Source of the DNA: Styela clava
Lineage: Eukaryota
Assembly: GCF_964204865.1 (NCBI RefSeq)
Contig: NC_135253.1
Location: 11,284,001-11,348,000, forward strand
Direction: 5' to 3'
Length of the DNA stretch: 64,000 bases
In this document: piece after piece, positions 1,876 through 59,900 of the stretch
Position numbering within the stretch: position 1 is the stretch's first letter
How the letters are laid out: each line of letters begins with the position of its first letter
Translations under genes and position numbers: made by a program
Notes under the pieces: model-generated
What the model saw: the letters and a program-made list of their open reading frames with translations, nothing else
Database searches by the model: none
Told to the model about the DNA's origin: nothing

Positions 1876-4800
1876 TTATTCATCGTATTCCGGATCCTCC
1901 TCCGAGTAATCATCTCCGTCCATCTCATCACCCTCATCATCATCGTTCATATACTCTGCAAGAAGCATCAACATGTCATTGGCAACTTCTGGTTCGTCCT
2001 CCATGAACGATTTCAACTCGCCAATCGCGTCTGCTCTGGTCTTTGCTTGTTGTTGTTGGATTGTTACAAGGGCAGCTGGAAGAAAATTTTGCAAAATGTT
2101 AACTACAGTTCCATGATTGCATAAAATAGAGCAGTTAATATGATACATTATACGTTCTTCCAGTGGCGGCGCGTCAATAGGGCCAACCGGGGCAATGCCC
2201 CGGTTGTTTTTTCGGTATAATAAAAAATATTCGAAAAATACCTCAATATCGGTTGCACAGACTGTCTACACTAGCCATATTCTCCCGACATGGTTCATTT
2301 TTCGCTCGCAAAGCCTTCGCCGAACGTCGACGCGGCGACGCCGATTTTGCCCCGGTTGCTCATTGTATATAGTATTCTCTCTTTTATCTTCCACTCGCCG
2401 CGTTTGTCTCGTTTGTTTTCTGTTTCTTTTACTAAATCATCGGGGCCGATCGGGGCTAGCCCCGAACTTATGAAGACACAATGCCGACGTTTCTTACAAC
2501 AACGTGTTGACATATTCACGCATTCCTTCTCGTTCGTTGGTTGCTTGAAGAGTTGATAGTTTCCTCGCCTTCGTTTTTGTCGCTTGTTTCGCTATTTGAA
2601 TCAGTTAGAGACCTTTAGTCCATTTGCTTTCGATTTTCCACATTCCTTTTGAGCTCCTCACTTCTTTCCGGCTTCGCATTTCTTAGCCTTAGACCTCATA
2701 ATGAATAAGGTTGATGCACTACTTCGCACTCCGTTTTCACAGCTGCTGCTGGAACAAAAATTAGAGGTACAACGTCTTGGGCCTTATCAACCAAAAATTG
2801 TTCACTGGAACAATCCCATGACGGAGGAAAGCGTCGGCGTACATTCTGCGCAGAAACTTGGTATAACAAAACACGAATGGTTGTGTTACAGCGAGGACAA
2901 AAATGCACTTTTTTGTTTTTATTGCCTACTTTTTGCTACCGCCCGTGACTCACGTTGGTGTAAATTTGGTTTTAGAGATCTTAAACATCTTTCCGAGCGT
3001 GCCAGGGATCATCAATCTTCTATGGAGCATCTGGACAATGCAGTAAAATACCGAACATTCGGAAATGTTAATATTGCAGCACAGTTGGATGAAGGACGCG
3101 CGGTTTCTATTCGTCGGCACAACCAAAACGCCGAGAAAAACCGCCATGTTCTCGGTCGATTGAGAGATGTTTTGAAGTTCATTGGTTGTCACGAGCTGTC
3201 CCTCCGTGGGCATCATGAACGGGCTGGCTCTACTAATAGAGGGGTATTTTTGGATATGATGGAATACACCGCATCCCTAGATACAGTATTGAGAGATCAT
3301 CTTGATGCCGCAATTGTTTCGAAAGGGACATCTAAGGATATCCAAAATGATTTGCTCGACTCAATGTATAACATTTATTTACAACATTTGGCTCTGGAAA
3401 TTGAGAATTGCCAGTTCCTTTAGATTCAGTCTGACGAGACACCTGAAATCACGTGCGTTTCCCAACTGGCTGTGATTTTTCGGTTTGTGAAAGATGGTAA
3501 ACCTACCGAGAGATTTCACAGCTTTGTACCAATCGTTGATCGCACGGCTTGCGGGATATCGGCTGTACTGAAAGAAGTGTTACAGCCTTACAACGCGAAG
3601 TCAAAATTGATTGCTCAAACTTATGACGGCGTGGCAGTCATGAGTGGGTTGAAACATGGTGTTCAAGTTTATATAAAAGAAGATTTTCCTCATGCGCATT
3701 TTTTACATTGTTATGCACACCAATTTAACCTCGTTATTAAAAATATGTTTCTTGATACCCCTCTCGTCCGTATATTTTTTGCAAATGTTTCGGGGTTTTC
3801 TTCATTTTTTTCCGTTTCGCCGAAGCGCTCTGACCTCCTTTGCCAGATATGTAGCCGCCGTCTCCCAGCCTGTGCACCAACACGTTGGAACTTTCAATCA
3901 CGCGTGGTGCAGGGCGTGTCCGAAATTAGGTCTGAGCTCATTGAGTGTTTCAATGGCAGAGCTCACCGGTTTGGGACGAACGCTCCGTGAGGGAGGCGGC
4001 AGGTCTAAAGCGTCTGCTAGAAGATGGTGAGTTTTCATTTTTTCTCGCCTTTTTCTCCACAATATTCTATCACGTGGATGTTTTATACGGCGCATTGCAG
4101 TCAAGGCTAATGGATGGAGCGTCTGTGCAGTCGTGTATTTCAGACTTTTTCAAAATTTGCACGTCAATTTCCCATCCATTTGTTGGCTACTGTCTCCAAA
4201 TTTTACCCCATGATAAACGTGGGTAAATTGGAAAATGAATTGCGATGTATATACACCAATCAAACTTTTTTGAACATCACATCAACTTGCGCGCTCTATG
4301 GGTTCCTCATAGATAACACTCTAGTAACTACCTTTGCGGCGTCTGCAAAATTTCTGGACATCATTTTGACGACGCCTATTTCTTCCGCCGACGCAGAGCG
4401 AACATTCAGCACGCTGAAGCGTATTAAAACGTATCTCAGAAACACCATGAAGCAAGATAGATTAAATTCCTTGGCTGTTTTATCCATTCACAGAGACGTT
4501 ATTTCTGGGATGCATGACTTTAATCAGCGCGTTATTGAGCATTTTGCTTCCAAGAAACCGCGGCGTGTTGCATATATGTTCAAGCAGTAGAAGTCTAGCA
4601 GCATATATATCTATGAGTGAGCGACGCATGTCCTTATCTTTGCATTACCTTTCCTTTCTTCATAGTAACGTTTTAAACCTTATTTTTAGGTTTTGTCTGC
4701 TTTCCCGAAGTTTCTGTTAATATGTCATTGTATTTATCTGGGTAAACATTGCCTTACCTTTTGAAAGAGGTTTCAAAATAAACTATGTCTATATTTATTA

Positions 4801-5691
4801 ATCCCTTGACTTGGACCGGTTTTAAAGACACTTTCTTATCGTTAAAAATTGTCGCTTTTGCCGATTGGTTGTTACCGATGGAATGGTTTTTATACTCCTA
4901 AAATGATGGGAGAACTTACAGCGCTCATCCTGTCCCCGTAGATGGGGGTGACTTGGTCCCGCAGTAGCTTGCCCCGGTTGTCAAAATGACCACGCGCCGC
5001 TACTGCGTTCTTCAAATATAGAGTTTGTGTCATGCGAAACGGAAATTTGCTCGAAGAAGTCTCCTAGTCAGACAATATGAGCGGTGTACTTATTATAGCT
5101 TAAATGGCCGATATTTGTTTATTTCAAGATTTAGCACACACATATTATTGCATATTGGGGGAGGTGGTAGACATGGGAAAATTTCGAGAATCAGATCTCG
5201 GAATAATGGGTTGTTCTGCACGAAATGCATTCAATGCAAAAAAAACCAAGACATCTAGAAACCCACATCTGGCGATAAGAAGTCAAATTCATAAATATCC
5301 CTTCGAAGTGAAATTTATGCATATGGTTACTTTTTAGGGCTGTGTTCAAAAGAAGGATGCAGTGAAGTAAAATTTCATCGATATATTTACCATCTTCGTC
5401 GTGTCGTCTTCTTCTCTTGGATCGATAACGCCAGCGACTAAGTCTTTCTCTCCAACGTCGAATCCTTCTGCGCCATCCACTCCGACGACCACGTTTTTTG
5501 AATCTGTACGACCTATCAATAAAATGTTACAGTGTGGAAACATCATTTAAACTTATTGTAGATGGAAGCAAAAATAGGTTTATAGAAACTGTGATTTACA
5601 CTTTGGACTGCCAAATAGAAAATAAAACCTACTGACTCTCGGCCAAGAGCATCGCCAATACAAGGACGACGAACAGAAATTTCCAATTCAT
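1876..5691 (-). CDS. Secreted Arg/Trp-rich cationic peptide precursor with acidic propiece (putative antimicrobial peptide), copy A, 126 aa
   Basis: Hand-spliced coding exons 5691-5633, 5512-5391 and 2075-1876, all GT-AG with matching phases (2, then 1). A non-coding exon 1 ends at 5758 (donor GTAAGA). Product: MNWKFLFVVLVLAMLLAESQS-YRFKKRGRRSGWRRRIRRWRERLSRWRYRSKRRRRH-DEDAALVTIQQQQAKTRADAIGELKSFMEDEPEVANDMLMLLAEYMNDDDEGDEMDGDDYSEEDPEYDE*. The same structure is conserved in copy B. Antimicrobial function is inferred. Confidence 0.85.
2161..5005 (+). mobile_element. hAT-superfamily DNA transposon (2845 bp, defective) in intron 3 of peptide gene copy A
   Basis: TIRs CAGTGGCGGCGCGT / ACGCGCCGCTACTG. 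Perfect 8-bp TSD CGTTCTTC (2153-2160, 5006-5013). The empty site is present in the paralogous copy at ~10296-10303. Confidence 0.95.
2701..4590 (+). pseudogene. Disrupted hAT transposase (ZMYM1/Tip100-like: TTF-type Zn finger, DUF4371-like region, hAT C-terminal dimerisation domain)
   Basis: Motifs WLCYSEDKNALFCFYCLLF, QSDET, YDG..VMSG, HCYAHQFNL, PTRW and PISSADAERTFSTLKRIKTYLRNTMKQDRL. In-frame TAG at 3421-3423, a frameshift near 3950 and an apparent internal deletion near 4150. Confidence 0.9.
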
Positions 5692-8800: not shown

Positions 8801-10035
8801 ACAGTAAAAAGATAACAGAACACCTTTTTTAACACTTTTCGCACAAGCAAAACAATTACAGAGAATTTATATATTACGCACGCGAACACTCCGAGTCAAA
8901 AAAAAAAATGCCGCCTCGTGTTAATTAGCTAAGTTGCATTACAGCGGAAAAGTCTGTGCTGTAAACTCTTTTGTGGTGTTTCGAAAAAAGGAATTTGTCT
9001 TCATTAGCGTTACGTGTCAAATTTTTTTTTGAAAGTGCAACTAGAACGTTTTGTGCCTCACATAGAGGAACATAGTTGCTAAAAGTCAGCCCGCTGTCTG
9101 GGTGACGCGGCGCTACATCTTTACAACCAACCAATGGTGCTCCACAGTAGTCTATTGTAATTTAGTCTATCGTGGAATTACCGCATGTGGTGCACTAGAA
9201 TTACTTATTAGACCTTAACCTACCGATGTTGAAGATTCAAACTTTATAAAGTCATTACAAATTTATAAAATCATAAATTGAGCAAAAAGAATCCCTATTT
9301 GTAGACGAAAGTTTTCATATATTTCAGTCGTTAGATCGATATATAACTTTTCCCTTCGATTTGCGCGATTTTATGGGATTGAAAAAAATTGGTGTGCGTA
9401 CTTTTCAGTATATATAGACTACCTGAATTTCAATAACTTGTTCTATTCCCCTCACCCAGCGTACAAATTGAACACTGCTGATCAAAAGAATAAATAATGG
9501 TATATATATATGCTACTATTGAATTTATTTCGATTTTAGATCTCAAATTTAAAATTATTGTAGTTGATATTTCCTTATTCCGGGTGTGATAAAAGTCGAA
9601 CAGAAGAAATCTAAAAATAAAGTTTGAAAATACCTATTGCTTTAGTAATATCTGTGCAGGAACTGAAATGACGGGTCAATAGTTATGCACTGTTTTGAGT
9701 TTGACATGGTTTGCAAATGGATTGCTGGCATCGATTTTTGTGAATTTCCTTGTGAATATCGTTGCCATTTTGGGGAATGACCATTGTGTTTTGACTATCA
9801 CGTCAAATATACAAACTTTACTCATTTGGATCTGTCTACATTATTTATACGATTTAGATAATAATTGATGTGGTCTTATCGTTAAGGATACGTACTTTCC
9901 AGGGGGTTTGAAGAAATGCCCAAAGCAATAAAGAAAACAGTCGTTTCCACACTAACACGGTACATTTCAATAAATTGTTAAATTTATAAACGGGAGTGAA
10001 TCGTATATAATTAGATTACCATTTTAGGCATGCAT

Positions 10036-10990
10036 TTATTCATCGTATTCCGGATCCTCCTCCGAGTAATCATCTCCGTCCATCTCATCACCCTCATCAT
10101 CATCGTTCATATACTCTGCAAGAAGCATCAACATGTCATTGGCAACTTCTGGTTCGTCCTCCATGAACGATTTCAACTCGTCAATCGCGTCTTCTCTGGT
10201 CTTTGCTTGTTGTTGTTGGGTTGTTACAAGGGCAGCTGAAAGAAAATTTCGCAAAATTGTAACTACAATTTTATGAGCGCATATAATACATTATACGTTC
10301 TTCAAATATAGCATTTGTGTCATGCGAAACGGAAATTTGCTCGAAGAAGTCTTCTAGTCAGACAATATGAGTGGTGTACTTATTATAGCTTAAAATGACC
10401 GGTATTTGTTTATTTCAAGATATAGCGTACACATATATATTATTGCATATTGGGGGAGGTGGTAGACATGGAAAAATTTTGAAAATCAGATATCGAAATA
10501 ATGGGTTGTTCTGCACGAAATGCATTCAATGCGAAAAAACCAAGACATCTAGAAAACCACATCTGGCGATCAGAAGTCAAATTCATAAATATCCCTTCGA
10601 AGTGAAATTTCTGCCTATGGTTACTTTTTGGGACTGTGTTTAAAAGAAGGATTCAGTGAAGTAAAATTTCATCGATATATTTACCATCTTCATCGTGTCG
10701 TCTCCTGAATCGGAAACGCCGGCGCCAGCGACCAAATCTTCTTCTCCAACGTCGAATCCTTCTGCGCCATCCACCCCGACGACCACGTTTTTTGAATCTG
10801 TACGACCTATCAATAAAAAGTTACAATGTGGATACATCATTTAAACGTATTGCAAATGGAAGCAAAAATATGTTTATAGAAACTGTGATTTACACTTTGG
10901 ATTGGACTGCCAAATAGAAAAAAAAACTTACTGGCTCTCGGCCAAGAGCATCGCCAATACAAGGACGACGAACAGAAATTTCCAATTCAT
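10036..10990 (-). CDS. Secreted Arg/Trp-rich cationic peptide precursor with acidic propiece (putative antimicrobial peptide), copy B, 126 aa
   Basis: Coding exons 10990-10932, 10806-10685 and 10235-10036; non-coding exon 1 ends at 11057. Product: MNWKFLFVVLVLAMLLAESQS-YRFKKRGRRGGWRRRIRRWRRRFGRWRRRFRFRRRH-DEDAALVTTQQQQAKTREDAIDELKSFMEDEPEVANDMLMLLAEYMNDDDEGDEMDGDDYSEEDPEYDE*. Confidence 0.88.
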
Positions 10991-11121
10991 CTGTAAAATA
11001 TCAGAAAAGTTATTAGCTTCATGCAAATACATACAAGTTTAGACAAATTGTCTTACCTTGAAAAGAGTGTTGTTCTCTTCAAATGACGAATAAAATGATG
11101 GGTTGTCTTATGCTCATTCTG

Positions 11122-13414: not shown

Positions 13415-13912
13415 CAGTGGCGGCGCGTCAATAGTGCCAACCGGGGCAATGCCCCGATTGTTTTTTCGGTATAATAAAAAATATTCGAAAAATACCTCAA
13501 TATCGGTTGCACAGACTGTCTACACTAGCCATGTTCTCCCGACATGGTTCATTTTTCGCTCGCAAAGCCTTCGCCGAACGTCGACGGGGCGACGCCGATT
13601 TTGCCCCGGTTGCTCATTGTATATCGTATTCTCTCTTTTATCTTCCACTCGCCGCGTTTGTCTCGTTTGTTTTCTGTTTCTTTTACTAAATCATCGGGGC
13701 TAGCCCCGAAATTATGACGACACAATGCCGACGTTTCTTACAACAACGTGTTGACATATTCACGCATTCCTTCTCGTTCGTTGGTTGCTTGAAGAGTTGA
13801 TAGTTTCCTCGCCTTCGTTTTTGTCGCTTGTTTCGCTATTTGAATCAGTTAGAGACCTTTAGTCCATTTGCTTTCGATTTTCCACATTCCTTTTGAGCTC
13901 CTCACTTCTTTC
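13415..13912 (+). mobile_element. 5' fragment (~500 bp) of the same hAT transposon as 2161-5005
   Basis: Near-identical to 2161-2668 starting exactly at the TIR CAGTGGCGGCGCGT; no right end seen. Confidence 0.9.
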
Positions 13913-14230: not shown

Positions 14231-14684
14231 TCAATGTTTCAGCCTTTTTACCCAAATTTTGTTCATTTATTTTTCAATGTTAGTAGTAAGCTTTTTCTTA
14301 TTTTAATATCTCTTATCTTGCGTTCGTACCAATAAGATAAATCGCAGATAATATAGGCGTGAGTTCGGAGATAAAGGATAAAAGATAACAGCGGCCCAGT
14401 TTCATCCACTTATCTAAGAACTAGTTATCTTCGACCTATCTACGATTTTACGCCAGCCAGTATTACGACTTCTATTTACTACGATCTTCAACCTCAGAGC
14501 AACGATGAATTATATACCTATATAGGTATGTACGCATGAATTGTGCTTCTTCTGGTTTGACAAATGAAATAAACTCTCCCTCTCCTTCTACAGTTCTATC
14601 TGTCTATAGCTCTATTAGTGTAACTGTGCAGTGATTTCTGTCTACAAATATAAAATCAAATCACCTTCGAAAACGACGAAAAGC

Positions 14685-15884
14685 ATGTATACATATGAAC
14701 CTTTGAGAAAAGGTCCTGGATTAGACTTTCGTTCAACATTCACTTTTTCAAACACTGGGAAATCTGCTTCATCTGGGACTAAATATAGTGCTGTGTCTAT
14801 TGATATGGAACCAGAATTTCAGTATATGAATCCCTCTCATCCATGGTGGGTTACCATATGCACTGGTGCAGTCCAGTTTTTTGCATATTTTCTTTTTATA
14901 ATAACTTTGCCATTTTCAGCAATCGTTTGCTTTAAGATGGTACACCAATATGAAAGAATAGTCGTTTACAGGATTGGACATCTATTGCCACTCAAAGGGC
15001 CTGGCATTGTTCTTATTCTTCCTTGCATTGATCGGTGGAACAAAGTAGATTTACGTACCAAGGCTTTCAATGTTCCACCAACCAGAGTTTGTACTTCTGA
15101 TGGCGGATTAATTTTAATTGGTAGTGTTGTTCATTTTCGTGTGCAAAATCCTTTGCGTGCAAACAATAGTTTAAAAGATATGAATCACTCCATCAGAACA
15201 ATGGCACAATCAGCTATGTCAAAAATCCTGAGCAAAAAGCTTTTTTCAGAGGTGATGTCAAGTGGATCTCGTTACAATTATGACATTCAAACTGAGATTA
15301 ATGAAGTTGCTCGTGATTGGGGGCTCGAAATCGGAAGAGTAGAATTGTCTCAACCAGTTGCAGAAGTCTCCCCGCCTGTGCAACAAACTGGATTTCTCGA
15401 TAAATTAAAATCTGGATTCGGGGGAGGCGGTGATGTAATGGGCATGACGCAGCAGCTTTTAGGTTTTGCTGGAGCTGGTGGTTTAAACCAACAATATGCC
15501 AGTATGAATAAAGTCAGTGAGACATCTACAAATATACCAGTGGTTGATATAGAAAAAGAGGCAGGTGATCTAATCAATGCTGCTGGGAGTGTTATTGATG
15601 AAGATATGCTTTATAATGTTGATGCTGCATTTGAGATTAAACTTACTGATAATGGAAATTATTATTTTATCGACTTGAAGATTGGAGGAGGAAGTTGTGG
15701 CAAAGGTAGACTTCCTGTTGGTACACCTGACGCAACTTTGATTCTCAGCTTCAGTACGTTACATAAACTTTTGTCTGGAAAAATAGGAGCATTTTCTGCC
15801 TATAATAGTGGGAATTTAAAGTTAGAAGGTGATATCAAAACTGCAATGAGACTGGAAGAACTTGTGAATCATCTCAAAATATAA
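14685..15884 (+). CDS. STOML1: Stomatin-like protein 1 (SPFH/band-7 domain plus C-terminal SCP2 sterol-binding domain), single coding exon, 399 aa
   Basis: Membrane segment followed by YERIVVYRIGHL..KGPGIVLILPCIDRWNKVDLRTKAFNVPP. C-terminal SCP2-like PDATLILS...AYNSGNLKLEGDIKTAMRLE. First in-frame ATG at 14685; possible 5'UTR intron at 14526-14593. Confidence 0.92.
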   Translation: MYTYEPLRKGPGLDFRSTFTFSNTGKSASSGTKYSAVSIDMEPEFQYMNPSHPWWVTICTGAVQFFAYFLFIITLPFSAIVCFKMVHQYERIVVYRIGHLLPLKGPGIVLILPCIDRWNKVDLRTKAFNVPPTRVCTSDGGLILIGSVVHFRVQNPLRANNSLKDMNHSIRTMAQSAMSKILSKKLFSEVMSSGSRYNYDIQTEINEVARDWGLEIGRVELSQPVAEVSPPVQQTGFLDKLKSGFGGGGDVMGMTQQLLGFAGAGGLNQQYASMNKVSETSTNIPVVDIEKEAGDLINAAGSVIDEDMLYNVDAAFEIKLTDNGNYYFIDLKIGGGSCGKGRLPVGTPDATLILSFSTLHKLLSGKIGAFSAYNSGNLKLEGDIKTAMRLEELVNHLKI

Positions 15885-16851
15885 ATAGCCGTTTGTTGAT
15901 AATACAAAATTATCAAAAAATGTTAAATTACTTTCATTTGTGATGGCTGTATTTTGCCTAATTAAAGAGTGGAAATACGGTAGAACATACAACCAAGTCA
16001 CAACTCCTGTAGCTTGTCTGTAAAAAAAAAAACGAGTATCAGATAGGGTTTAGATTAGGTTTCTGCATGTAGTTTTTCTTCGATATTAGAAATGTTGCAA
16101 TTTCAAATACATTTTTGGTAGTTCGAATATCAAATTAACCGATTTGTATTATTCTTTAAATCAGAATTTTGCACTTGTTAATGAACTGTCAGTTTTTCAT
16201 ATTAATTTTACTTTTTTCTAAACTATTTCTTGCAAGTTCTTATATTGTTTCAATTTATTATATTAATGAAATACAATAAGGAGTGTATGATAATATGGAT
16301 TATGGATAATCTAATATAGCTAACTGTTGCTGTCTGATATTTCATCAATCTCAGTCAATATTATTTCCAAAAGATCTTGTTTTATATCTATCAAGCATTT
16401 TATGCTTTCATTAATCTTCAAAAATTACATTAATTAATGATAATAATAACTCTGAGATCCAATATTTCCATTGTTTTGTATGACTATTTTTCGAAAATTT
16501 GTTCAATGATTAATATGGTAATAAATATCTATTGATCTTTATTAATTTGTCACTTGACACTTGGTTTCACATTATCTCAACCCTAATTTTTCAAGTAGTT
16601 ATGCATTTGTTGTTGGGCAATCGTTTCTCCATAAGCAAACAAAATTTCAGATTTTTTTGAAAAGTATTTTCATGTATATACTGTGCTATCCTAAATGTCA
16701 TTGAAACTTCATTTTGTTGTTATTGATTTATTGACTGCATTTCTAGTACAAGGTATGTTTGTACTTTAGTAACCTACTTTTTTAATACATTTTTAGGTTT
16801 TTGATTGTGAACATCTAATTAACCCTTGTTACTATTTGCACATTATTCGAA

Positions 16852-17622
16852 ATGGCTGACAAAGAGGAAGACAATGCGGAGTTGGATTGTACAGGAGCAA
16901 AGCATTCTGTATGGTTGGTCAAAGTTCCAAAGTATTTAGCTACTATATGGAAAGAAGCACCTGGAGGTCAACCAGTTGGAAAATTACGCATCGGAAAAAC
17001 AATGGGAAGAACTCAAGTTTCATTCAATCTTGATGAATCATTGGCAAAAGAACATCCTACAAGTAAAGATTCTGTTCCTACAGAACACAAGTTCTCTTTG
17101 CAAGGCATGGGGAACCAGAGCTTAGCTGTGTTCTCACAAATACCTGGTGTAGGCCCAGGAGGGAGCGAAAAACGAGCTATTGAGGGACGAATAGTTCAAA
17201 AAGCTGATTGTATGCCACAAGGTGGTCAAAAGTATATGAAACTCAAAATGACTCAATTTGAAGTTGCTACAAAACCAACCAGAACTGTAAAACAGCTTGA
17301 CACTGCAGTAAGAAGTGTCTATAAGCCGGTATCAAGAATACAAGAAGAAATAGCTAACGATAAACGGCAAAAAGCAGAAGGAAAGCGTATCAGAGGTTCA
17401 AAAGAACAAGTCATGGCAAAGCTTTTCGAAGCATTTGAAAAACATCAATTCTACAGTATTCAAGATTTAGGAAAAATAACAAAACAACCGATAACTTTCC
17501 TTAAAGAGATATTGCGAGAGATTGGACATTATAATTTAAAAAATCCACATAAAAATATGTGGGAATTAAAACCTGAATATAGACATCATGAAACCCCGAA
17601 AATGGATGTAGATTCTGATTAA
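16852..17622 (+). CDS. GTF2F2: General transcription factor IIF subunit 2 (RAP30), single coding exon
   Basis: VWLVKVPKYL near the N-terminus; C-terminal winged helix LFEAFEKHQFY..QDL..ITKQP..FLKEILREIG.YNLKNPHKNMWELKPEYRH. Confidence 0.97.
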   Translation: MADKEEDNAELDCTGAKHSVWLVKVPKYLATIWKEAPGGQPVGKLRIGKTMGRTQVSFNLDESLAKEHPTSKDSVPTEHKFSLQGMGNQSLAVFSQIPGVGPGGSEKRAIEGRIVQKADCMPQGGQKYMKLKMTQFEVATKPTRTVKQLDTAVRSVYKPVSRIQEEIANDKRQKAEGKRIRGSKEQVMAKLFEAFEKHQFYSIQDLGKITKQPITFLKEILREIGHYNLKNPHKNMWELKPEYRHHETPKMDVDSD

Positions 17623-45429: not shown

Positions 45430-45804
45430 CCGTGTTTTCCCGAAAATAAGACCTACCCCGAAAATAAGACGTAGCCAGAATTTTAAGAATGATCGTAATT
45501 TAAGCTATCCTTTAAAAATAAGACCTAATCAATAGCGCAATTTTTTTTCGACCTGCCCGATAGCAAAAATCTCTCCTATACATTTCAAATAATTAATCTA
45601 AACGTGTGAGGGAGGACGTGTCATTTAATTAAGTAAGTGGATATCGGTTTTCATATTTTGTATATTTGAAAATTTCGTAATTCTCTACTTTGTAATTTTG
45701 TTTTTCATAAATAAAAATATACGACATCCCCCAAAAATAAGCCCTAGTGTTATTTTTCGAAAGAAAATTGAAATAAGATGAAATTATTTACGGGAAAAAC
45801 ACGG
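45430..45804. mobile_element. Tc1/mariner-pogo (Tigger-like) MITE
   Basis: TIR CCGTGTTTTCCCGAAAATAA / TTATTTACGGGAAAAACACGG, preceded by TA; repeated AAAATAAGAC subterminal motifs. Confidence 0.75.
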
Positions 45805-46815
45805 GCAGTTAAATGAATACGGTAGCCTATAATATGACGTAGAAATTTATTCCACAATGACAGCGATCCCACAGTGTGCGGTATCTGGCTATTTAGTTTT
45901 CCAGTGAAGAATTAGCCACAATGTCTTTATTTATATGTAATTTATTTATTATTTAGGCTACTTATTGAACAATTCACATTGTGGATCCATTTAAAAAAAA
46001 GGAACTGGCCTATATAATTTTTGGTTTCGCTGGCCTAGTCACTTTGGTTTGGGAGAACGGAGGGGACAGGTTAGTGTAGTCAGGTTGCAGAGACTGAGAT
46101 TGATTATGAATATTTTAAATAAATAAACGATGCAAGATTTTGTTCGAGTAATGGAGTTCTCTTTGTTTTTCCTGTTTTCCTCCAAGCTATTTCAGTATTT
46201 TACACTGTTTTCAATTTAGAGCTTTCCCCCACGTTTTTCAGTATTCTCCAAATGCTAAGAGAAGTATTTGAAATCCATTTGCCAATACACAGATACACTT
46301 CACTGCCACCTAGGATCTGACCTTAAAAATCAGAAAATGATGAAATGCGTTAACTTCCAGACATCATTCAATTCGCTGTCACGATCTATTTCGAGTAATT
46401 AGAGCAACGAGGACTGAGTGCCATGTTAAATCATTTTGATCAGAATTTTTTTTATCATTTGAGAAACCTGTCATATGTCTTTTATATACTTGAATCTCTA
46501 CTATCACTGTATCAAGTTAAGTCTCTCTGAGTGTTTGTAGAGACTTATATTTTGACTCAAGTCCTTTTCTAAAACTACAGGCAGCCTTGAATTTAATAAA
46601 AAATGTAAAGTGTGGTCAAGCTGTCAAGTCAATGGCTCAAGTTTACCAAAACACCTATTCTAGTATATTTTGTACTTATTGTCTAGTGCTGTAGTGGCTG
46701 TGTTATAATTTCATCAATACTGCAATAAATCACATTGTGCAATTACAAAGCTTTCTTTAATTCTAATATTCATTATTAAATGTAAGTTTGTATAATATTG
46801 AATGAGAAGAATTCA

Positions 46816-47274
46816 ATGAAGACTAAATTGCTTGCTGTGTTTGCGGGGTGCCTGGGTGCGGCAGCATCTGTCACAGGAAAACTGGGAATGAATGGAGACC
46901 ATATAAACAAATTATGTCTGGCTATTACCTTGATGTTCCAGAGTATTGCGCATGATGACCCTCCACCATTAACAGATGAAGAAGTATATATGACATTTAT
47001 AGCGTCAGTTGTTACAAGAGGAATATTTTTGATATTAACATTTATATTGAATGCCACTATGTGGTCTTTATTTGTGGAATCAATGCAAGGACTCAATTCT
47101 GGTGAAGCTGTGGTATTAAATACTGGTGCAAATATTTTATTTTCTGCATTATTAGGAAGGCTTGTATTTAATGAAATGTTTGGAATGTTGTGGGGAGTTG
47201 GGGCATCACTTATATTATGTGGGATGTCCTTTTTGCATTCAACAACTCCACAAGAAGGTCTCAAAAATGGTTGA
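46816..47274 (+). CDS. TMEM42: Transmembrane protein 42 (EamA/DMT-like), copy 1, single exon
   Basis: AGCLGAAASVTGKLG, NATMWSLF, AVVLNTGANILFSALLGRLVFNE...LWGVGASLILCG; four hydrophobic helices; first ATG at 46816. Confidence 0.85.
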   Translation: MKTKLLAVFAGCLGAAASVTGKLGMNGDHINKLCLAITLMFQSIAHDDPPPLTDEEVYMTFIASVVTRGIFLILTFILNATMWSLFVESMQGLNSGEAVVLNTGANILFSALLGRLVFNEMFGMLWGVGASLILCGMSFLHSTTPQEGLKNG

Positions 47275-47950
47275 CGATACATCGGTATCTGTCACATGCT
47301 ATTTATATTTAAGTATTGCTAAATAATAAGTGGGTGAACTCACTTGAACATTACTTTGTTTTATAATATATTTTTGGCCTGAGGGATTATTCTGTCATAA
47401 AATATTCTGCTCATTCTGTTTGATGGTCCAAACTCAAATTCATGATAATGCAACAAATCTTTTGAGTCTGAATTTGGCATTTTTTTCACTGGAATCTCAT
47501 TTTCGAACTATCCAAGTTGGAGTCAGAATTTCAATGATGATGAGAGAACTCAATTTTTTTACGAAAACTCGAAAAGCATAAAGTTTACTACTGTAAGTGT
47601 TTTTAATAACATTCTAATAAAGATTGCTTGCATATGTTGAAGTTTTTGTTCTAAAAATGTGATTTCCTTGAAATTCAAAGCTATAGTTGAAGTCAAATTT
47701 TCTTATACCTTGGGCTTAGAGTCGGCTTCACAGCCTTGGTTTCCAACAATGCTCATATAAATATGCCATAAAAAGTGAAATATAAGTGTTTCAAAAATTA
47801 CCGTAGTTGTAGTATCCTGTTTGTTTTTTTAAACAAGATCTATGCGACTTTCTTATATTGTGGTTGTAACTTGGCCAAACTAAAATGAATATTGTGATCA
47901 ATATCTTTTAAAATTAGGTTCTGAGTACGCCTGTAATGTGAAGTATAGTT

Positions 47951-48098
47951 ATTACCTATCGATTTTAATCGGTATGTTGATAGGTATTTGTCTGTCTGTT
48001 TGTTAGATGCACGCGATATCTCACGAAAACGAGATTGAATCTGCTCCAGATTTTGCATGTGCATTCATCATATGTCGTACCAGAAGCCTGTTGATTTT
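47951..48098 (+). mobile_element. Truncated copy of the DINE-1/Helentron-like repeat
   Basis: Matches the 5' half of 40160-40461; absent from duplication unit 2. Confidence 0.65.
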
Positions 48099-48214
48099 CA
48101 TAATATTCTATTACCAGTATTCGAATGTATTCTGTCCTTTAGTATTTCTCACATGTGTAGCGAAAATAATAATTTCCTATTTTTCATACTTTTATAGTTG
48201 TATTGTTTAATTAT

Positions 48215-48364
48215 ATGGCCAACATGAATGATATAAATGATACAACTCTGGAGTTTGGAGAGGAAGATAAACCCCAGAAAAAGAAGAGAATTGCTCACCC
48301 GGTTGCTTGCTTTTTCCATCTCTTCTTCAGAGTTTCTGCAATTATCAACACGGGATATTTATAA
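48215..48364 (+). pseudogene. Truncated duplicate of TVP23 (first 44 codons, then NTGYL*)
   Basis: Near-identical to 51246-51378 until 48347, then unrelated sequence and TAA at 48362-48364. Confidence 0.88.
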
Positions 48365-49500
48365 AAAATTAGTTGCTAACTATTTATTATGCTTATTTTA
48401 CCAAGCAATTAATGCTTTTGCTTTGTAAATGGTAATTTTAGTTTTATTTGATAAATATCTTTCCCTTTTTGTCATGTTAATTTTACCTGTCTACATTTTT
48501 TCAGTTGTAAATAATGACACGCCTACAATTCTGCCAAGAATTTTAACCTTCGCCTCGCCGCACACAAAGGTCAAATTCTACTAGCTTCACAGCGGTGGGA
48601 AAACACGGGCAGTTAAATGAATACGGTAGCCTATATGACGTAGAAATTTACGCTACAATGACAGCGATCCCCCAGTGTGCGGTATCTGGCTATTTAGTAG
48701 GCCTATTCCAGTTAAGAATTAGCCTATTGGTACACAATGTCTTTATTTATATTTAATTTTTCTATCATTTACTTTTTGAACAATTCACATTGTGGATCCA
48801 TTTAAAAAAAGGAATTGGCCTATATAATTTTTGGTTTCGCTGGCCTAGTCACTTTGGTTTGGGAGAACGGAGGGGACAGGTTAGTGTAGTCAGGTTGCAG
48901 AGACTGAGATTGATTATGAATATTTCAAATAAATAAACGATGCAAGATTTTGTTCGAGTAATGGAGTTCTCTCTGTTTTTCCCGTTTTCCAAGCTATTTC
49001 AGTATTTCACACTGTTTTCAATTTAGAGCTTTCCCCCACGTTTTTCAGTATTCTCCAAATGCTAAGAGAAGTATTTGAAATCCATTTGCCAATACACAGA
49101 TACACTTCACTGCCACCTAGGATCTGACCTTAAAAATCAGAAAATGATGAAATGCGTTAACATCATTCAATTCGCTGTCACAATGATCTATTTCGACTTT
49201 TCGAGTAATTGGAGTAACGAGGACTGAGTGTCATGTTAAATCATTTTTATCAGAATTTTTTTTATCATTTGAGAAACCTGTCATATGTCTTTTTAATATA
49301 ATTGAATCTCTACTATCACTGTATCGAGTTAAGTCTCTCTAAGTGTTTGTCAAGACTTATATTTTGACTCAAGTCCTTTTCTAAAACTGCAGACAGCCTT
49401 GAATTTTATAAAAAACGTAAAGTGTGGTCAAGCTGTCAAGTCAATGGCTCAAGTTTACCAAAACACCTATTCTAGTATATTTTGTACTTTTTGTCTAGTG

Positions 49501-49944
49501 CAGTACGGCACACTATACAAATCGGGTGACATTGTCCCGTTTCAACGAAACCCATTTTACAGATGATCAGACACCCCTCCTTCGGGAGATGTCTGGACAT
49601 TGTTGTCCCTCAATATCGGTAATAATACAGTATAATGAAGTTGCGCAAAATACTCGAAAAACGGCAATCTAGTAACGTCATCATTGAATTCCTTGGGAAA
49701 AAATAATCCGATTTACAGAAGGGAAAAAAATTTTACCATAGCATTCGAGAGTTTTTAGCAAAAAACGGCAATTTTGGTCATGTGACGGCCGCGATTAATT
49801 TAGATTATTATTGAGACAAGCATGGCGTGATATGAAGCATTTGTCGTGGTCCCAGACGCCCCTCGTTTGTGAGACACATGGAGTGTTTGTTTTATTGAGC
49901 CAAATGGAGGGAAATTCTTGGAATTTGGATAGTGTGCTGTACTG
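49501..49944. mobile_element. MITE (444 bp) upstream of TMEM42 copy 2
   Basis: TIR CAGTACGGCACACTATACAAAT / ATTTGGATAGTGTGCTGTACTG, flanked by TAGTG on both sides; absent at the paralogous site 46684-46696. Confidence 0.85.
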
Positions 49945-50068
49945 TAGTGGCTGTGTTATAATTTCATCAATACTGCAATAAATCACATTGTGCAATTACA
50001 AAGCTTTCTTTAATCCTAATATTCATTATTAAATGTAAGTTTGTATAATATTGAATGAGAAGAATTCA

Positions 50069-50527
50069 ATGAAGAATAGATTGCTTGCTGTGTTTGCGGG
50101 GTGCCTGGGTGCAGCAGCATCTGTCACAGGAAAACTGGGAATGAATGGAGACCATATAAACAAATTGTGTCTGGCTATTACCTTGATGTTCCAGAGTATT
50201 GCGCATGATGACCCTCCACCATTAACAGATGAAGAAGTATATATGACATTTATAGCGTCAGTTGTTACAAGAGGAATATTTTTGATATTAACATTTATAT
50301 TGAATGCCACTATGTGCTCTTTATTTGTGGAATCAATGCAAGGACTCAATTCCGGTGAAGCTGTGGTATTAAATACTGGTGCAAATATTTTATTTTCTGC
50401 ATTATTAGGAAGGCTTGTATTTAATGAAATGTTTGGAATGTTGTGGGGAGTTGGGGCATCACTTATATTATGTGGGATGTCTTTTTTGCATTCAACAACT
50501 CCACAAGAAGGTCTCAAAAATGGTTGA
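50069..50527 (+). CDS. TMEM42: Transmembrane protein 42, copy 2
   Basis: Three amino-acid differences from copy 1 (T>N, K>R, W>C). Confidence 0.83.
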   Translation: MKNRLLAVFAGCLGAAASVTGKLGMNGDHINKLCLAITLMFQSIAHDDPPPLTDEEVYMTFIASVVTRGIFLILTFILNATMCSLFVESMQGLNSGEAVVLNTGANILFSALLGRLVFNEMFGMLWGVGASLILCGMSFLHSTTPQEGLKNG

Positions 50528-51245
50528 CGATACACCGGTATCTGTCACATACTATTTATATTCAAGTATTGCTAAATAATAAGTGGGTGAACTCGCTTGA
50601 ACATTACTTTGTTTTATAATATATTTTTGGCCTAAGGGATTATTCTGTTCATTCTGTTTGATGGTCCAGACTCAAATTTATGATAATGCAACAAATCTTT
50701 AGAGTCTGAATTTGGCATTTTTTTCACTGGAATCTCATTTTCGAACTATCCAAGTTGGAGTCAGAATTTCAGACTTTCAATGATGATGAAAGAACTCAAT
50801 TTTTTTATGAAAACTTGAAAAGCAATAAGTTTACTACTGTAAGTGTTTTTAATAACATTCTAATAAAAATTGCTTGCATATGTTGAAGTTTTTGTTATAA
50901 AAATGTGATTTCCTTGAAATTCAAAGCTATAGTTGAAGTCAAATTTTCTTATACCTTGGGCTTAGAGTCGACTTCACAGCCTTGGTTTCCAATAATGCTC
51001 ATATAAATATGCCATAAAAAGTAAAATATAAGTGTTTCAAAAATTACCGTAGTTGTAGTATCCTGTTTTTTTTTTTTAAGCAAGATCTATGCGACTTTCT
51101 TATATTGTGGTTGTAAAGTATAATATACGACATATATTCTATTACCAGTATTCGAATGTATTCTGTCCTTTAGTATTTCTCACATGTGTAGCGAAAATAA
51201 TAATTTCTTATTTTTCATACTTTTATAGTTGTATTGTTTAATTAT

Positions 51246-51866
51246 ATGGCCAACATGAACGATATAAATGATACAACTCTGGAGTTTGGAGAGGAAGATA
51301 AACCCCAGAAAAAGAAGAGAATTGCTCACCCGGTTGCTTGCTTTTTCCATCTCTTCTTCAGAGTTTCTGCAATTATCATTTATTTGTTTTGTGGACTCAC
51401 AAATTCCGGATTTGTAGCCAGTTTTATATCAATACTATTAATGCTCTGTGCTGATTTTTGGACTGTTAAAAACATAAGCGGCAGGTTACTTGTTGGATTA
51501 AGGTGGTGGAACAAAATAGAAGAGGATGGTAAAAGTCAATGGATTTATGAATCAAGAAGAGGGGCTGCTCTCAAGAAACATCCAGTTCTGGCTGCGGAAT
51601 CAAGAATATTCTGGTTTGGACTGATATTATGTCCGATATTTTGGTTTTTCATGCTTTTCAGTACTGTTTTTGGAATGAAACCTCAATGGCTTGCTGTGGT
51701 CATTATTGCTTTGGGATTGAATGGTGCAAATTTGTTTGGGTATATCCGATGTAAAGTTGGAAGTCGTAAGCAGCTTGGAAGTATGGCTACAACTTATATT
51801 GGGAAACAAATATTTCAGCAGGCTACACAAAGCTCTGAAGATACAAACCAGAGTTCAACAAACTGA
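51246..51866 (+). CDS. TVP23B: Golgi apparatus membrane protein TVP23 homolog, single coding exon
   Basis: HPVACFFHLFFRVSAI, DFWTVKNISGRLLVGLRWWN, ESRIFW, LNGANLFGYIRC. The A/B/C paralog label is not meaningful outside vertebrates. Confidence 0.93.
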   Translation: MANMNDINDTTLEFGEEDKPQKKKRIAHPVACFFHLFFRVSAIIIYLFCGLTNSGFVASFISILLMLCADFWTVKNISGRLLVGLRWWNKIEEDGKSQWIYESRRGAALKKHPVLAAESRIFWFGLILCPIFWFFMLFSTVFGMKPQWLAVVIIALGLNGANLFGYIRCKVGSRKQLGSMATTYIGKQIFQQATQSSEDTNQSSTN

Positions 51867-57788: not shown

Positions 57789-59900
57789 CTAATAGAATTC
57801 CAATAAATGTCTCTTAAGCTTGGATCTAAATTCGGACATCGTTGTCGAGCTTTTAATACTATTAGGCAATGGGTTCCATACTTTAGGTCTAAAGAATGTA
57901 ATCGATTCTTGTGCTATTGATGTTCTAACATACGGAACAAAAAATCTGTCGTGACTTCTGCTATTTTGGGTATTATTATTCGCGAATACGCGATTAAAGC
58001 AACTAGGGAGTTGACCAGTAGAAGATAAAAACATCAATGTGCAAATCTCTAATGTTAGTAAATCTTCAACACGTAGTAGTTTTTCACTTTTGAACAAATC
58101 CGCAACACTATCTCTCCGACCCCTATCAAAAGTCATTCTCAAGAACTGATTACAGGCACTTTGAATTTTAATTGTAATACCTTTTTGACGATGCATCCAA
58201 GTGTTTATACAATATCGTATATATTAAGGTTTTTATTGGTTTTTGAAATAGCTTCGAGGGCTGCCCTTGTTTTGGATAGTACCAATTGTGACTGATATTT
58301 CCATGACAATTTGTCATCGAGTGAAACACCCAGGAAACGAATTTGGTTTACTCTTTGAATGCACTTGGACTGTAGAATTAGCTCATCGTTTAAAATGAGT
58401 AGTTTTTGTCCAGATGCACTGAAAATCATGTACTTGGTCTTTTCCGCATTTTCTGTTAGTAGTTAGCCATGGTTGAATATTAGTTAGGTCAGCATTAGCT
58501 TTTTCAAAAAAGTTTTGGTAAATTTTTCCCCTGTAAAAAAGTGGTGGTGTCATCAGCAAATAGAATAGCATCAGAGTTCTTGAGTGATTCAGGGAAGTCA
58601 TTAATCATAATTAAGAAAAATATAAGCCCCATAAGCGAACCTTGAGGGGCCCCAATTGTTAAGTTGCAGTATTTACTTGAAGAGTGCCCGTCATAAACTA
58701 ACACTTGTATGCGATCAGACAGGTAATTGCGGAACCATGAAAGGCAGTGGCCTCTAACAGCTATGTGGTAGAGTTTTGAAAGCAAGATATGATGGTCAAT
58801 GCAATCAAAAGCTTTTGATAAGTCAAGAAATAGTCCGAGAGTATAGTGGCCTTTTTCAAATCCATCCAGTATTTTACTTGTAAGCAGAGACGTGGCCGGC
58901 GAAGTGGTATGTCCCTTGCGAAAACCAAATTGTTGATGGTAGAAAAAACTCTTTTGTTCTAAAAAGTTAACTAGTCTATTGTACATGACTTTTTCTAAAA
59001 TCGTTGAAAAAGACGGCAGTAAGCTAATCGGTCTATAGTTTTTGACATTTTTTAATGTCTCCGCCTTTATGAAGCGGTACTACTTTAGCGATTCTAAATT
59101 CATCAATAAATTGTTAAATTAAATATTAAGAAGATGAACCAGAGAGAGCATACAGTTCCACGGCATTGCTCTAACCTTAATGGGGATTCCATCAAGCCCA
59201 CAGCTGGTTTTAGGTCTAAAAGCTCGAATAATAGCTTGTATTTCTGTGGCTGTTACCGGTGATAGAAACATTGAAGAGTTACTTGATTTGCCCATGTATT
59301 TTATGAAGTTACCGTCATAATCATTAGTGAATTTATCAGACATTCGCTGTCTTATCGTAGAAAAATGTTCATTGAAATGATCAGCTATCAATACAGGATC
59401 ACACGTTTCTCTATTTCCCACAACAAATACTTTTGACAGTTTAGATTTGCATCGACCTAGCAGGGTATTCATTGTTTGCCACGATTTTTTAAGATCGTTT
59501 TTAGTTTTAGTTTTACTCAAGAGCGATCTGTAGTAAGAATGCTTTTTGGCCGATAACATTTTTTTATAAGTTTTCTTGATTTCCAAGTATTCATTCCTAG
59601 AATATTGCAATTTATTGATGAGAGTTGAATTTTACAGTTTCTGTTTTTTCTTATGAAGTTTTATTAATTCGTTAATCAAATTGTTAGTTTTCTTGATCAA
59701 AATCTGAGGAAAACAGCGATTAAAAACTGGCATAACATGGCAAGAATATTTTCTAAGGGCATCGTTCGGGTCTGATTCTTCATACACTACAGAGAAATCG
59801 ATGCATTCTATTGACGTCCTAAATTTAGTCATATTGGTCGGATTAAATGATCGAGAAAGACTGTTTTTATTTATTTTAATAACAATTTTTTGTTACTATG
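57789..59900 (-). mobile_element. Decayed, 5'-truncated non-LTR retrotransposon (L2/CR1-group LINE ORF2, reverse transcriptase)
   Basis: Frameshifted ORF pieces with YRPISLLP, QFGFRKGHTT, FLDLSKAFDCIDH, GAPQGS, LFADDT, FLGVSLDDKLSWK and WNPLPNSIK. Confidence 0.9.

What the first reader, a model, noticed from the sequence alone, without database searches (positions are those of the whole stretch)
10036..10806. Charge-compensating co-evolution between cationic peptide and acidic propiece
Counted by hand, excluding His. Copy A: cationic part 21 K/R minus 1 E = +20, propiece 26 D/E minus 3 K/R = -23. Copy B: +22 and -25. The last exon differs at only 3 nucleotides in 200, all non-synonymous, and two add acidic residues (A>E, G>D). 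Both propeptides therefore keep a net -3. Inference: the propiece acts as an intramolecular neutraliser tuned to its toxic cargo, like a built-in toxin-antidote pair.
Basis: partly seen in the sequence, partly recalled or inferred. Interest (0 to 1): 0.7.

Follow-up and report, generated by a model that had tools for sequence, protein, structure and literature searches.

The report
Sea-squirt defence peptide with acidic tail
Two tandem sea-squirt genes encode a very arginine-rich, likely antimicrobial peptide followed by an acidic tail that likely keeps it inactive until cut off; across look-alike genes the two charges balance only roughly, an idea long known from defensins, and the exact match between these two copies is likely chance.

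Summary
The counts are right. Copy R (10036-10990) is +22/-25 and copy L (1876-5691) is +20/-23, both net -3. Both are uncharacterised Styela clava proteins, and each type has spliced contigs in runs guessed to be RNA. The exact match is weak evidence. One Arg>Glu makes the whole +2; three random tail changes give exactly -2 about 7% of the time, and neutral drift gives equal totals 13-16% of the time. I ran the proposed test on 23 look-alike genes modelled here plus the pair. Peptide and tail charge correlate across the set (r=-0.70, n=25; subfamily means -0.85, n=7) but not within subfamilies (r=0.01; 0 of 30 pairs compensate exactly). Other runs show tail variants of different charge. So coarse charge balance holds and residue-level tuning is not supported. 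Coarse balance is the 1992 'charge balance hypothesis' of defensins, and the signal-cationic-anionic layout is standard for ascidian peptides. New: an unnamed, extremely cationic candidate and, in the papers searched, a first ascidian test. Killing, cleavage and binding are untested.

The parts
10932..10990 (-). Copy R coding exon 1: predicted signal peptide (residues 1-20, cleavage site inferred); phase-2 intron follows
   Evidence: joint 10804/10930 (+2) in 3 of 4 RNA? runs
10685..10806 (-). Copy R exon 2: cationic Arg/Trp peptide (residues 21-57, +22) and the first three acidic residues; R42 lies at 10741-10742
   Evidence: amphipathic 18-mer moment 0.73, shuffle p=0.004; joint 10235/10685 in 4 of 4 runs
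10036..10235 (-). Copy R exon 3: acidic tail (propiece 58-126 is -25 in all) and stop; the three differences from L lie at 10220, 10193, 10181
10991..11056 (-). 66-nt 5' UTR intron ending directly before the ATG
   Evidence: joint 10990/11057 in 2 of 4 runs; GT..AG
9611..10019 (-). 3' UTR intron seen in one run
   Evidence: X8 only; GT..AG
5633..5691 (-). Copy L coding exon 1 (predicted signal peptide)
5391..5512 (-). Copy L exon 2: cationic peptide, +20 (carries E42)
   Evidence: L-type spliced contig in run X13
1876..2075 (-). Copy L exon 3: acidic tail (propiece -23 in all)
2161..5005 (+). hAT DNA transposon in intron 2 of copy L, 8-bp target duplication at 2153-2160 and 5006-5013, broken transposase
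   Evidence: junction also present in run X1

Best explanation
Two tandem Styela clava genes encode a precursor with a predicted signal peptide, a 37-residue arginine/tryptophan-rich amphipathic segment that is likely a membrane-active defence peptide, and a 69-residue acidic tail that likely masks it electrostatically until a protease would cut before the first Asp; the balance is coarse, and the exact -3 in both copies is likely coincidence. Shown: gene structure, splicing of contigs, charges, amphipathic pattern, family-wide charge correlation, no correlation among close paralogs. Inferred: secretion, cleavage at His57/Asp58 (by analogy to styelins and clavanins), killing, and binding of tail to peptide. 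Selection likely keeps precursors within a few charges of neutral (20 of 25 within +/-5) and lets single charge changes drift.
For: Layout matches ascidian linear cationic peptides: signal, cationic helix, anionic proregion, cleavage before D (PMC7387483). Best 18-mer moment 0.73 (R) and 0.64 (L), shuffle p=0.004 and 0.013. Exon 3 is more conserved than non-coding DNA: 3 of 200 vs 87 of 1540, p=0.010 (gene conversion could also do this). Across 25 precursors r=-0.70, p=9e-5; the spread of net charge is 4.2 against 7.6 for shuffled pairs. It survives dropping any one subfamily (-0.61 to -0.83), dropping 10 doubtful models (-0.70, n=15), moving the boundary by up to 10 residues (-0.64 to -0.72) and controlling for lengths (-0.62). 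With three styelins r=-0.79, n=28. No fine signal: within-subfamily r=0.014; shallow contrasts r=-0.24, p=0.41, n=13.
Against: No assay of killing, processing or binding. The 23 family models are mine and unconfirmed by RNA; their later exons were chosen partly by acidity. Homology of R/L to them is weak: 7 of 500 segment-shuffled controls score as well as R on the pooled profile, and intron phases differ (2-1 vs 2-0-1). The across-family signal rests on 7 subfamilies and a tree with deep support of 34-66. Charge density per residue correlates positively (r=+0.47), so only total charge balances. The peptide is less hydrophobic (-0.10) and more charged (+12 per 18 residues) than the Ciona screen's window (0-0.6; +3 to +10). 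One L-type contig carries two opposite tail changes (R74G, M85K) that cancel, and one close pair differs by +3/-2; both lean towards tighter control.
Confidence: 0.55

Rival explanations
1. Residue-level compensatory co-evolution: each charge change in the peptide is matched by one in the tail, so that the precursor stays at -3 and the tail is a cognate antidote.
For: R and L match exactly. 4 of 25 precursors are at -3, two of them R and L. In run X13 an L-type contig has R74G and M85K, which cancel (depth 4.4; 2 of its 7 exon-3 differences not displayed). One close C18 pair differs by +3/-2.
Against: One contrast, driven by one Arg>Glu; chance 7-16%. 0 of 30 within-subfamily pairs compensate exactly, 10 in sign, 15 oppose, 5 show no tail change (pairs are not independent). 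In run X1 all 3 contigs over place 10181 read G79 while only depth 3 of 9.6 reads A75, which implies E75+G79 tails of -24; run X11 shows E108Q (not phased with exon 2). Among three styelins the most cationic has the least acidic tail.
Confidence: 0.1
2. The tail balances charge for biosynthesis and packing, not for self-protection: it lets a polyarginine chain pass the ER, stay soluble and condense in granules.
For: Predicts the same coarse correlation in total charge. An antibody to the botryllin propeptide labels granules (PMC9966394 passage). The low-charge C18 subfamily also carries acidic tails.
Against: For alpha-defensins the anionic prosegment is reported to keep the peptide inactive (PMC3308943 passage). 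The two roles are not exclusive, and nothing here separates them.
Confidence: 0.2
3. The product is not an antimicrobial but another secreted polycation or polyampholyte (nucleic-acid or sulphated-glycan binder in tunic or extracellular traps), perhaps uncleaved.
For: No Pfam, PDB or Atlas family match. Mean hydrophobicity of the best helix is below zero. There is no Gly before the Asp, unlike styelins.
Against: Regular Trp/Ile/Phe face on the helix, an Asp boundary, and weak likeness to styelin-like clusters (E=2.8e-4 in this genome). A Ciona peptide of similar make-up (hydrophobicity -0.03, +11) was among those validated (PMC7387483).
Confidence: 0.15

Closest known systems
Charge balance hypothesis for alpha-defensin, cathelicidin and frog peptide precursors (Michaelson 1992; Hughes and Yeager 1997, as described in PMC4571063 and PMC7073735)
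   Same: Negative correlation of propiece and mature charge of similar size (defensins r=-0.742, n=28; here -0.70, n=25), and loose rather than strict (cathelicidins r=-0.38; frogs -0.40 to +0.16).
   Different: Here the propiece is C-terminal, the host is an ascidian, charges reach +24/-28, and inhibition is untested.
Ascidian linear cationic alpha-helical peptide precursors (Ci-MAM, Ci-PAP and others, PMC7387483)
   Same: Signal, cationic amphipathic helix, anionic helical proregion, acidic residue at the boundary, no Cys.
   Different: Longer (126 vs 50-100 aa screened), much more cationic (+22), no sequence match found.
Styelins (Pfam PF17562; three genes on G000:C10) and botryllin
   Same: Same species (styelins), same order of parts, Asp at the boundary. 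The C3/C18 look-alike genes share the styelin phase-2 and phase-0 introns.
   Different: R/L have no Pfam match, no KHK motif, no Gly before Asp and other intron phases; styelins are only +5 to +9.
Myticalins of mussels (PMC5577615)
   Same: Arg-rich linear peptide, variable centre, anionic C-terminal extension, 5' UTR intron right before the ATG, phase-1 intron a few residues into the tail.
   Different: Myticalins have a dibasic Lys-Arg site and are Pro-rich; the likeness is probably convergent (not tested by alignment).

Membership tests
Styelin (PF17562) | Match to the Pfam model | tested here: not met
   No match at E<=10 for P0001/P0002; the genome search hits only C10 (9 of 9 matches)
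Styelin (PF17562) | KHK motif and Gly before the Asp boundary | tested here: not met
   Absent in R and L; present in the three C10 genes; motif named in PMC9966394
Styelin (PF17562) | Intron phases 2-0-0 | tested here: not met
   R/L have 2-1; styelin genes 2-0-0
Clavanin (PF05452) | Match to the Pfam model | tested here: not met
   matches over the cut-off lie on C1, none on C4
Ascidian linear cationic helical peptide precursor (PMC7387483) | Signal peptide | tested here: inconclusive
   Hydrophobic N-terminus by eye and helix 3-24 in a low-confidence model; no signal-peptide predictor on hand
Ascidian linear cationic helical peptide precursor (PMC7387483) | Cys-free cationic amphipathic helix | tested here: met
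   Moment 0.73, shuffle p=0.004 (scale values recalled); no Cys
Ascidian linear cationic helical peptide precursor (PMC7387483) | Screen thresholds of that paper (50-100 aa; charge +3 to +10 and hydrophobicity 0-0.6 per 18-mer) | tested here: not met
   126 aa, +12, -0.10. These are screening limits; one validated Ciona peptide also lies outside them
Ascidian linear cationic helical peptide precursor (PMC7387483) | C-terminal anionic helical proregion starting at Asp/Glu | tested here: met
   Starts at D58; best 18-mer charge -6, moment 0.49; helix 89-107 in the model
Ascidian linear cationic helical peptide precursor (PMC7387483) | Antimicrobial activity, proteolytic release, hemocyte expression | not testable with these tools
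   Needs synthesis, peptidomics and tissue data
C3/C18 styelin-like clusters found here | Sequence homology and shared intron phases | tested here: inconclusive
   E=2.8e-4 to one C3 gene; 7 of 500 shuffled controls reach R's score; phases differ
Charge-balanced precursor family | Negative correlation of mature and propiece charge across genes | tested here: met
   r=-0.70, n=25; all contrasts r=-0.42, p=0.038, n=24
Charge-balanced precursor family | Coordinated change between close paralogs or alleles | tested here: not met
   Within-subfamily r=0.014; 0 of 30 exact

The most novel reading that the evidence does not exclude
Styela clava carries a mostly unnamed set of 25 or more precursors in which an acidic C-terminal tail scales with a cargo of +5 to +24 and acts as a charge-matched antidote and packing partner, condensing with its own peptide in granules until cleavage before Asp. 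This would be a natural titration series for the charge balance hypothesis with C-terminal propieces, with the gene in this window (+22 in 37 residues) at the extreme of charge density.
Probability: 0.3. Interest if true: 0.5.

Novelty: new member of a known kind. Interest (0 to 1): 0.27.

Why it matters
If the peptide kills, it is an unusually cationic candidate from a marine host that a standard screen's thresholds would have skipped. The family gives a ready series for testing whether C-terminal acidic tails quench in proportion to total charge or need a cognate partner. The principle itself is more than 30 years old, so the gain is a new case and a test set, not a new mechanism.

Tried and rejected
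Close relatives: only R and L in the genome (2 of 2 matches). Outside it, only their own cluster (1 hit of 3 and 1 of 46 candidates; 2 hits in 1.84 billion, the second a 1208-aa composition match), so there is no outgroup to orient the changes. The family search for annotated models covered only proteins of 222-2000 aa and found none of 7996; it says nothing about the 125-190 aa family. Atlas: no usable feature hit. PDB: 5 weak matches, E>=1. Single-sequence fold: pTM 0.28, helices only, no packing information. Complex prediction of peptide with tail: no verdict, score 0.01; not evidence either way. No run was on record as RNA; the runs used are guessed RNA. Runs X5-X8 gave no cover over L exons; that is no evidence of silence, and X13 holds an L-type spliced contig. 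'L is a decaying pseudogene' was considered: frame intact, exon 3 conserved and an L-type spliced contig argue against it. Positive selection on exon 2 is not established: 19 of 122 differences ungapped (p=1e-4) but 10 of 116 with two 6-nt gaps (p=0.21). L012-L014 were rejected as unrelated. Dropped before the regression: 4 of 27 first exons (two with no second exon found, one with a premature stop, one nearly non-cationic with another exon layout); two lone hits on C1 and C10 (L036, L037) were not modelled. PMC507226 was not held; PMC9872612 passages held nothing relevant.

Full report
What is there. The window lies on G000:C4. The NCBI names of the encoded proteins are Styela clava. The finding covers exons 2 and 3 of a minus-strand gene (copy R; coding exons 10990-10932, 10806-10685, 10235-10036). 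A tandem copy (L; 5691-5633, 5512-5391, 2075-1876) has a hAT transposon (2161-5005, 8-bp target duplication) in intron 2. The spliced products are identical to P0002 (XP_039249137.1) and P0001 (XP_077968122.1), both 'uncharacterized', 126 aa. Contigs of runs guessed to be RNA join R at the predicted sites: intron 2 in 4 of 4 runs, intron 1 in 3 of 4, the 5' UTR intron in 2 of 4. Run X13, from another study, holds a spliced contig with L-type exon 2 letters.

Checking the observation. The counts are exact: R +22/-25, L +20/-23, both -3. Exon 3 differs at 3 of 200 nt (T66I, E75A, D79G). The peptide difference comes down to R42E, because R49Y and F53R cancel and R52K is neutral. In such an acid-rich exon 74-81% of single changes are non-synonymous, so 3 of 3 has P=0.41-0.53; a tail difference of exactly -2 has P about 0.07. 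Random change also erodes both charges at once: in one-lineage simulations both parts lose charge in 56-69% of runs and compensate exactly in 3-20%; in two-lineage simulations the totals stay equal in 13-16%. The pair alone is therefore not evidence of co-evolution. Exon 3 is more conserved than introns and flanks (3 of 200 vs 87 of 1540, p=0.010), which points to constraint on the tail or to gene conversion.

R and L have no other close relative. The full protein gave a weak hit on C3 (E=2.8e-4); its first exon found 24 loci, 22 of them in three clusters on C3 and C18. I fetched the clusters, found 27 first exons and built 23 models by hand. Four were dropped: two with no second exon found, one with a premature stop, one nearly non-cationic with another layout. 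The models have a signal-like start, an Arg run, a cationic segment, an Asp boundary in exon 2 and an acidic tail; 20 of 23 have intron phases 2-0-1 and 3 end in exon 3. None is RNA-confirmed. With R and L (n=25), mature and tail charge correlate at r=-0.70 (p=9e-5, slope -0.78); subfamily means give r=-0.85 (n=7, p=0.016); counting His as +0.5 gives -0.84. The result survives dropping any subfamily, dropping 10 doubtful C-termini, shifting the boundary by 5-10 residues, and taking one gene per subfamily (median -0.80 over 3456 draws). Tree contrasts give r=-0.42 overall (n=24, p=0.038), -0.61 for the 11 deeper and -0.24 for the 13 shallow ones (p=0.41); deep nodes have support of 34-66 and my split at distance 0.5 is arbitrary. 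Three true styelin genes on C10 are +9/-7, +5/-8 and +6/-8, less acidic than predicted (-12.7, -9.6, -10.4) but at the low end as expected; with them r=-0.79, n=28.

Fine tuning fails the same test. Within subfamilies r=0.014 (permutation p=0.52). Of 41 within-subfamily pairs, 30 differ in mature charge: 0 compensate exactly, 10 in sign, 15 oppose, 5 show no tail change. Net charge spans -11 to +6; 20 of 25 lie within +/-5. Other runs show variation. In X1 all three contigs over 10181 read G79, one of them at a depth (9.35) near the local total, while only depth 3 of 9.6 reads A75, so tails of -24 are implied. X1 also has a third exon-2 form with a 6-nt insertion (Gly plus Lys by my reading; one contig, depth 2.8). 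X11 shows E108Q. Against my reading: the X13 L-type contig has R74G and M85K, which cancel, plus E101D (depth 4.4; 2 of its 7 exon-3 differences not shown), and one close C18 pair differs by +3/-2. Contigs are unphased, drop rare variants, and 16 rows of that table were not displayed.

How it likely works. The N-terminal hydrophobic stretch is likely a signal peptide (no predictor on hand). Residues 33-50 form an amphipathic helix with a Trp/Ile/Phe face (moment 0.73, shuffle p=0.004; scale values recalled). The tail has a predicted acidic helix and an Asp/Glu-rich end (low confidence). By analogy to styelins and clavanins, which are cut before D and DD (PMC7387483), cleavage before Asp58 would free a +22 peptide; with no Gly before the Asp, no amidation is predicted. 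The tail would mask the peptide on its way through the secretory path. The correlation holds for total charge, not density (r=+0.47 per residue), which fits bulk neutralisation. Self-protection and packing roles cannot be told apart here.

Comparison with what is known. PMC4571063 (passages) describes the charge balance hypothesis of Michaelson 1992, the defensin r=-0.742 of Hughes and Yeager, and r=-0.38 in cathelicidins. PMC7073735 (passages) finds weak or absent correlation in frogs and calls the requirement not strict. PMC7387483 (passages, sections 5 and 8) gives the ascidian layout. PMC9966394 (passages; its supplement gave only a legend, so the botryllin precursor sequence was not seen and may bear on the C3 genes), PMC5577615 (passages), PMC3308943 (passages) and PMC5198042 (passages) add context. 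The primary defensin and styelin papers were seen only as citations. R/L fail the styelin and clavanin membership tests, and their homology to the C3/C18 genes is unproven, so 'family' here means shared architecture. A search for charge balance + ascidian + propeptide + antimicrobial peptide returned 0 papers, and the listings showed no title on this gene; most subscription papers are not searched. Earlier scan notes describe similar S. clava precursor clusters; they are leads, not support.

Verdict. A real, uncharacterised gene pair of a known kind. The general neutraliser idea is plausible, supported at family scale and already known. The specific claim of tuned compensation between these two copies is not supported. 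Interest 0.27.

Noticed in passing
G000:C3:16.14-16.24 Mb, C3:7.75-7.78 Mb, C18:11.39-11.46 Mb (L015-L038): Three clusters with 27 first exons of styelin-like precursors (signal, Arg run, Asp boundary, acidic tail), sharing the styelins' phase-2 and phase-0 introns; C18 members include His/Tyr-rich long helices and a low-charge type.
   Followed up: partly
G000:C3:16185549 (L041): A cluster member that has almost no cationic segment and a weakly acidic tail; left out of the regression.
   Followed up: no
window 2161-5005 and 13415-13912: hAT transposon with a broken transposase in copy L's intron; contigs of related copies from RNA-guessed runs cover it. A 500-bp end fragment lies at 13415-13912.
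   Followed up: partly
window 10707-10728 vs 5413-5434: Exon 2 of R and L aligns best with one 6-nt deletion and one 6-nt insertion, each of two Arg codons, keeping length.
   Followed up: partly
window 45793-51378: A second tandem duplication, 91-99% identical, with two copies of an EamA-like membrane protein ORF (46786-47274, 50039-50527).
   Followed up: no
window 57789-59631: Fragments that look like a LINE reverse transcriptase on the minus strand (label by eye).
   Followed up: no
window 14619-17622, 51204-51866: Single long ORFs for a Band 7/SCP2 protein, TFIIF beta and a DUF846 protein.
   Followed up: no
L037 (G000:C1:11068647-11068760) and L036 (G000:C10:9020318-9020398): Two lone precursor-like first exons; L037 has tandem Trp-Arg-rich repeats after the signal.
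   Followed up: no
G000:C3:7740275-7745150 (L053): Tandem array of about 372-bp units, 14 seen, beside the C3 cluster.
   Followed up: no
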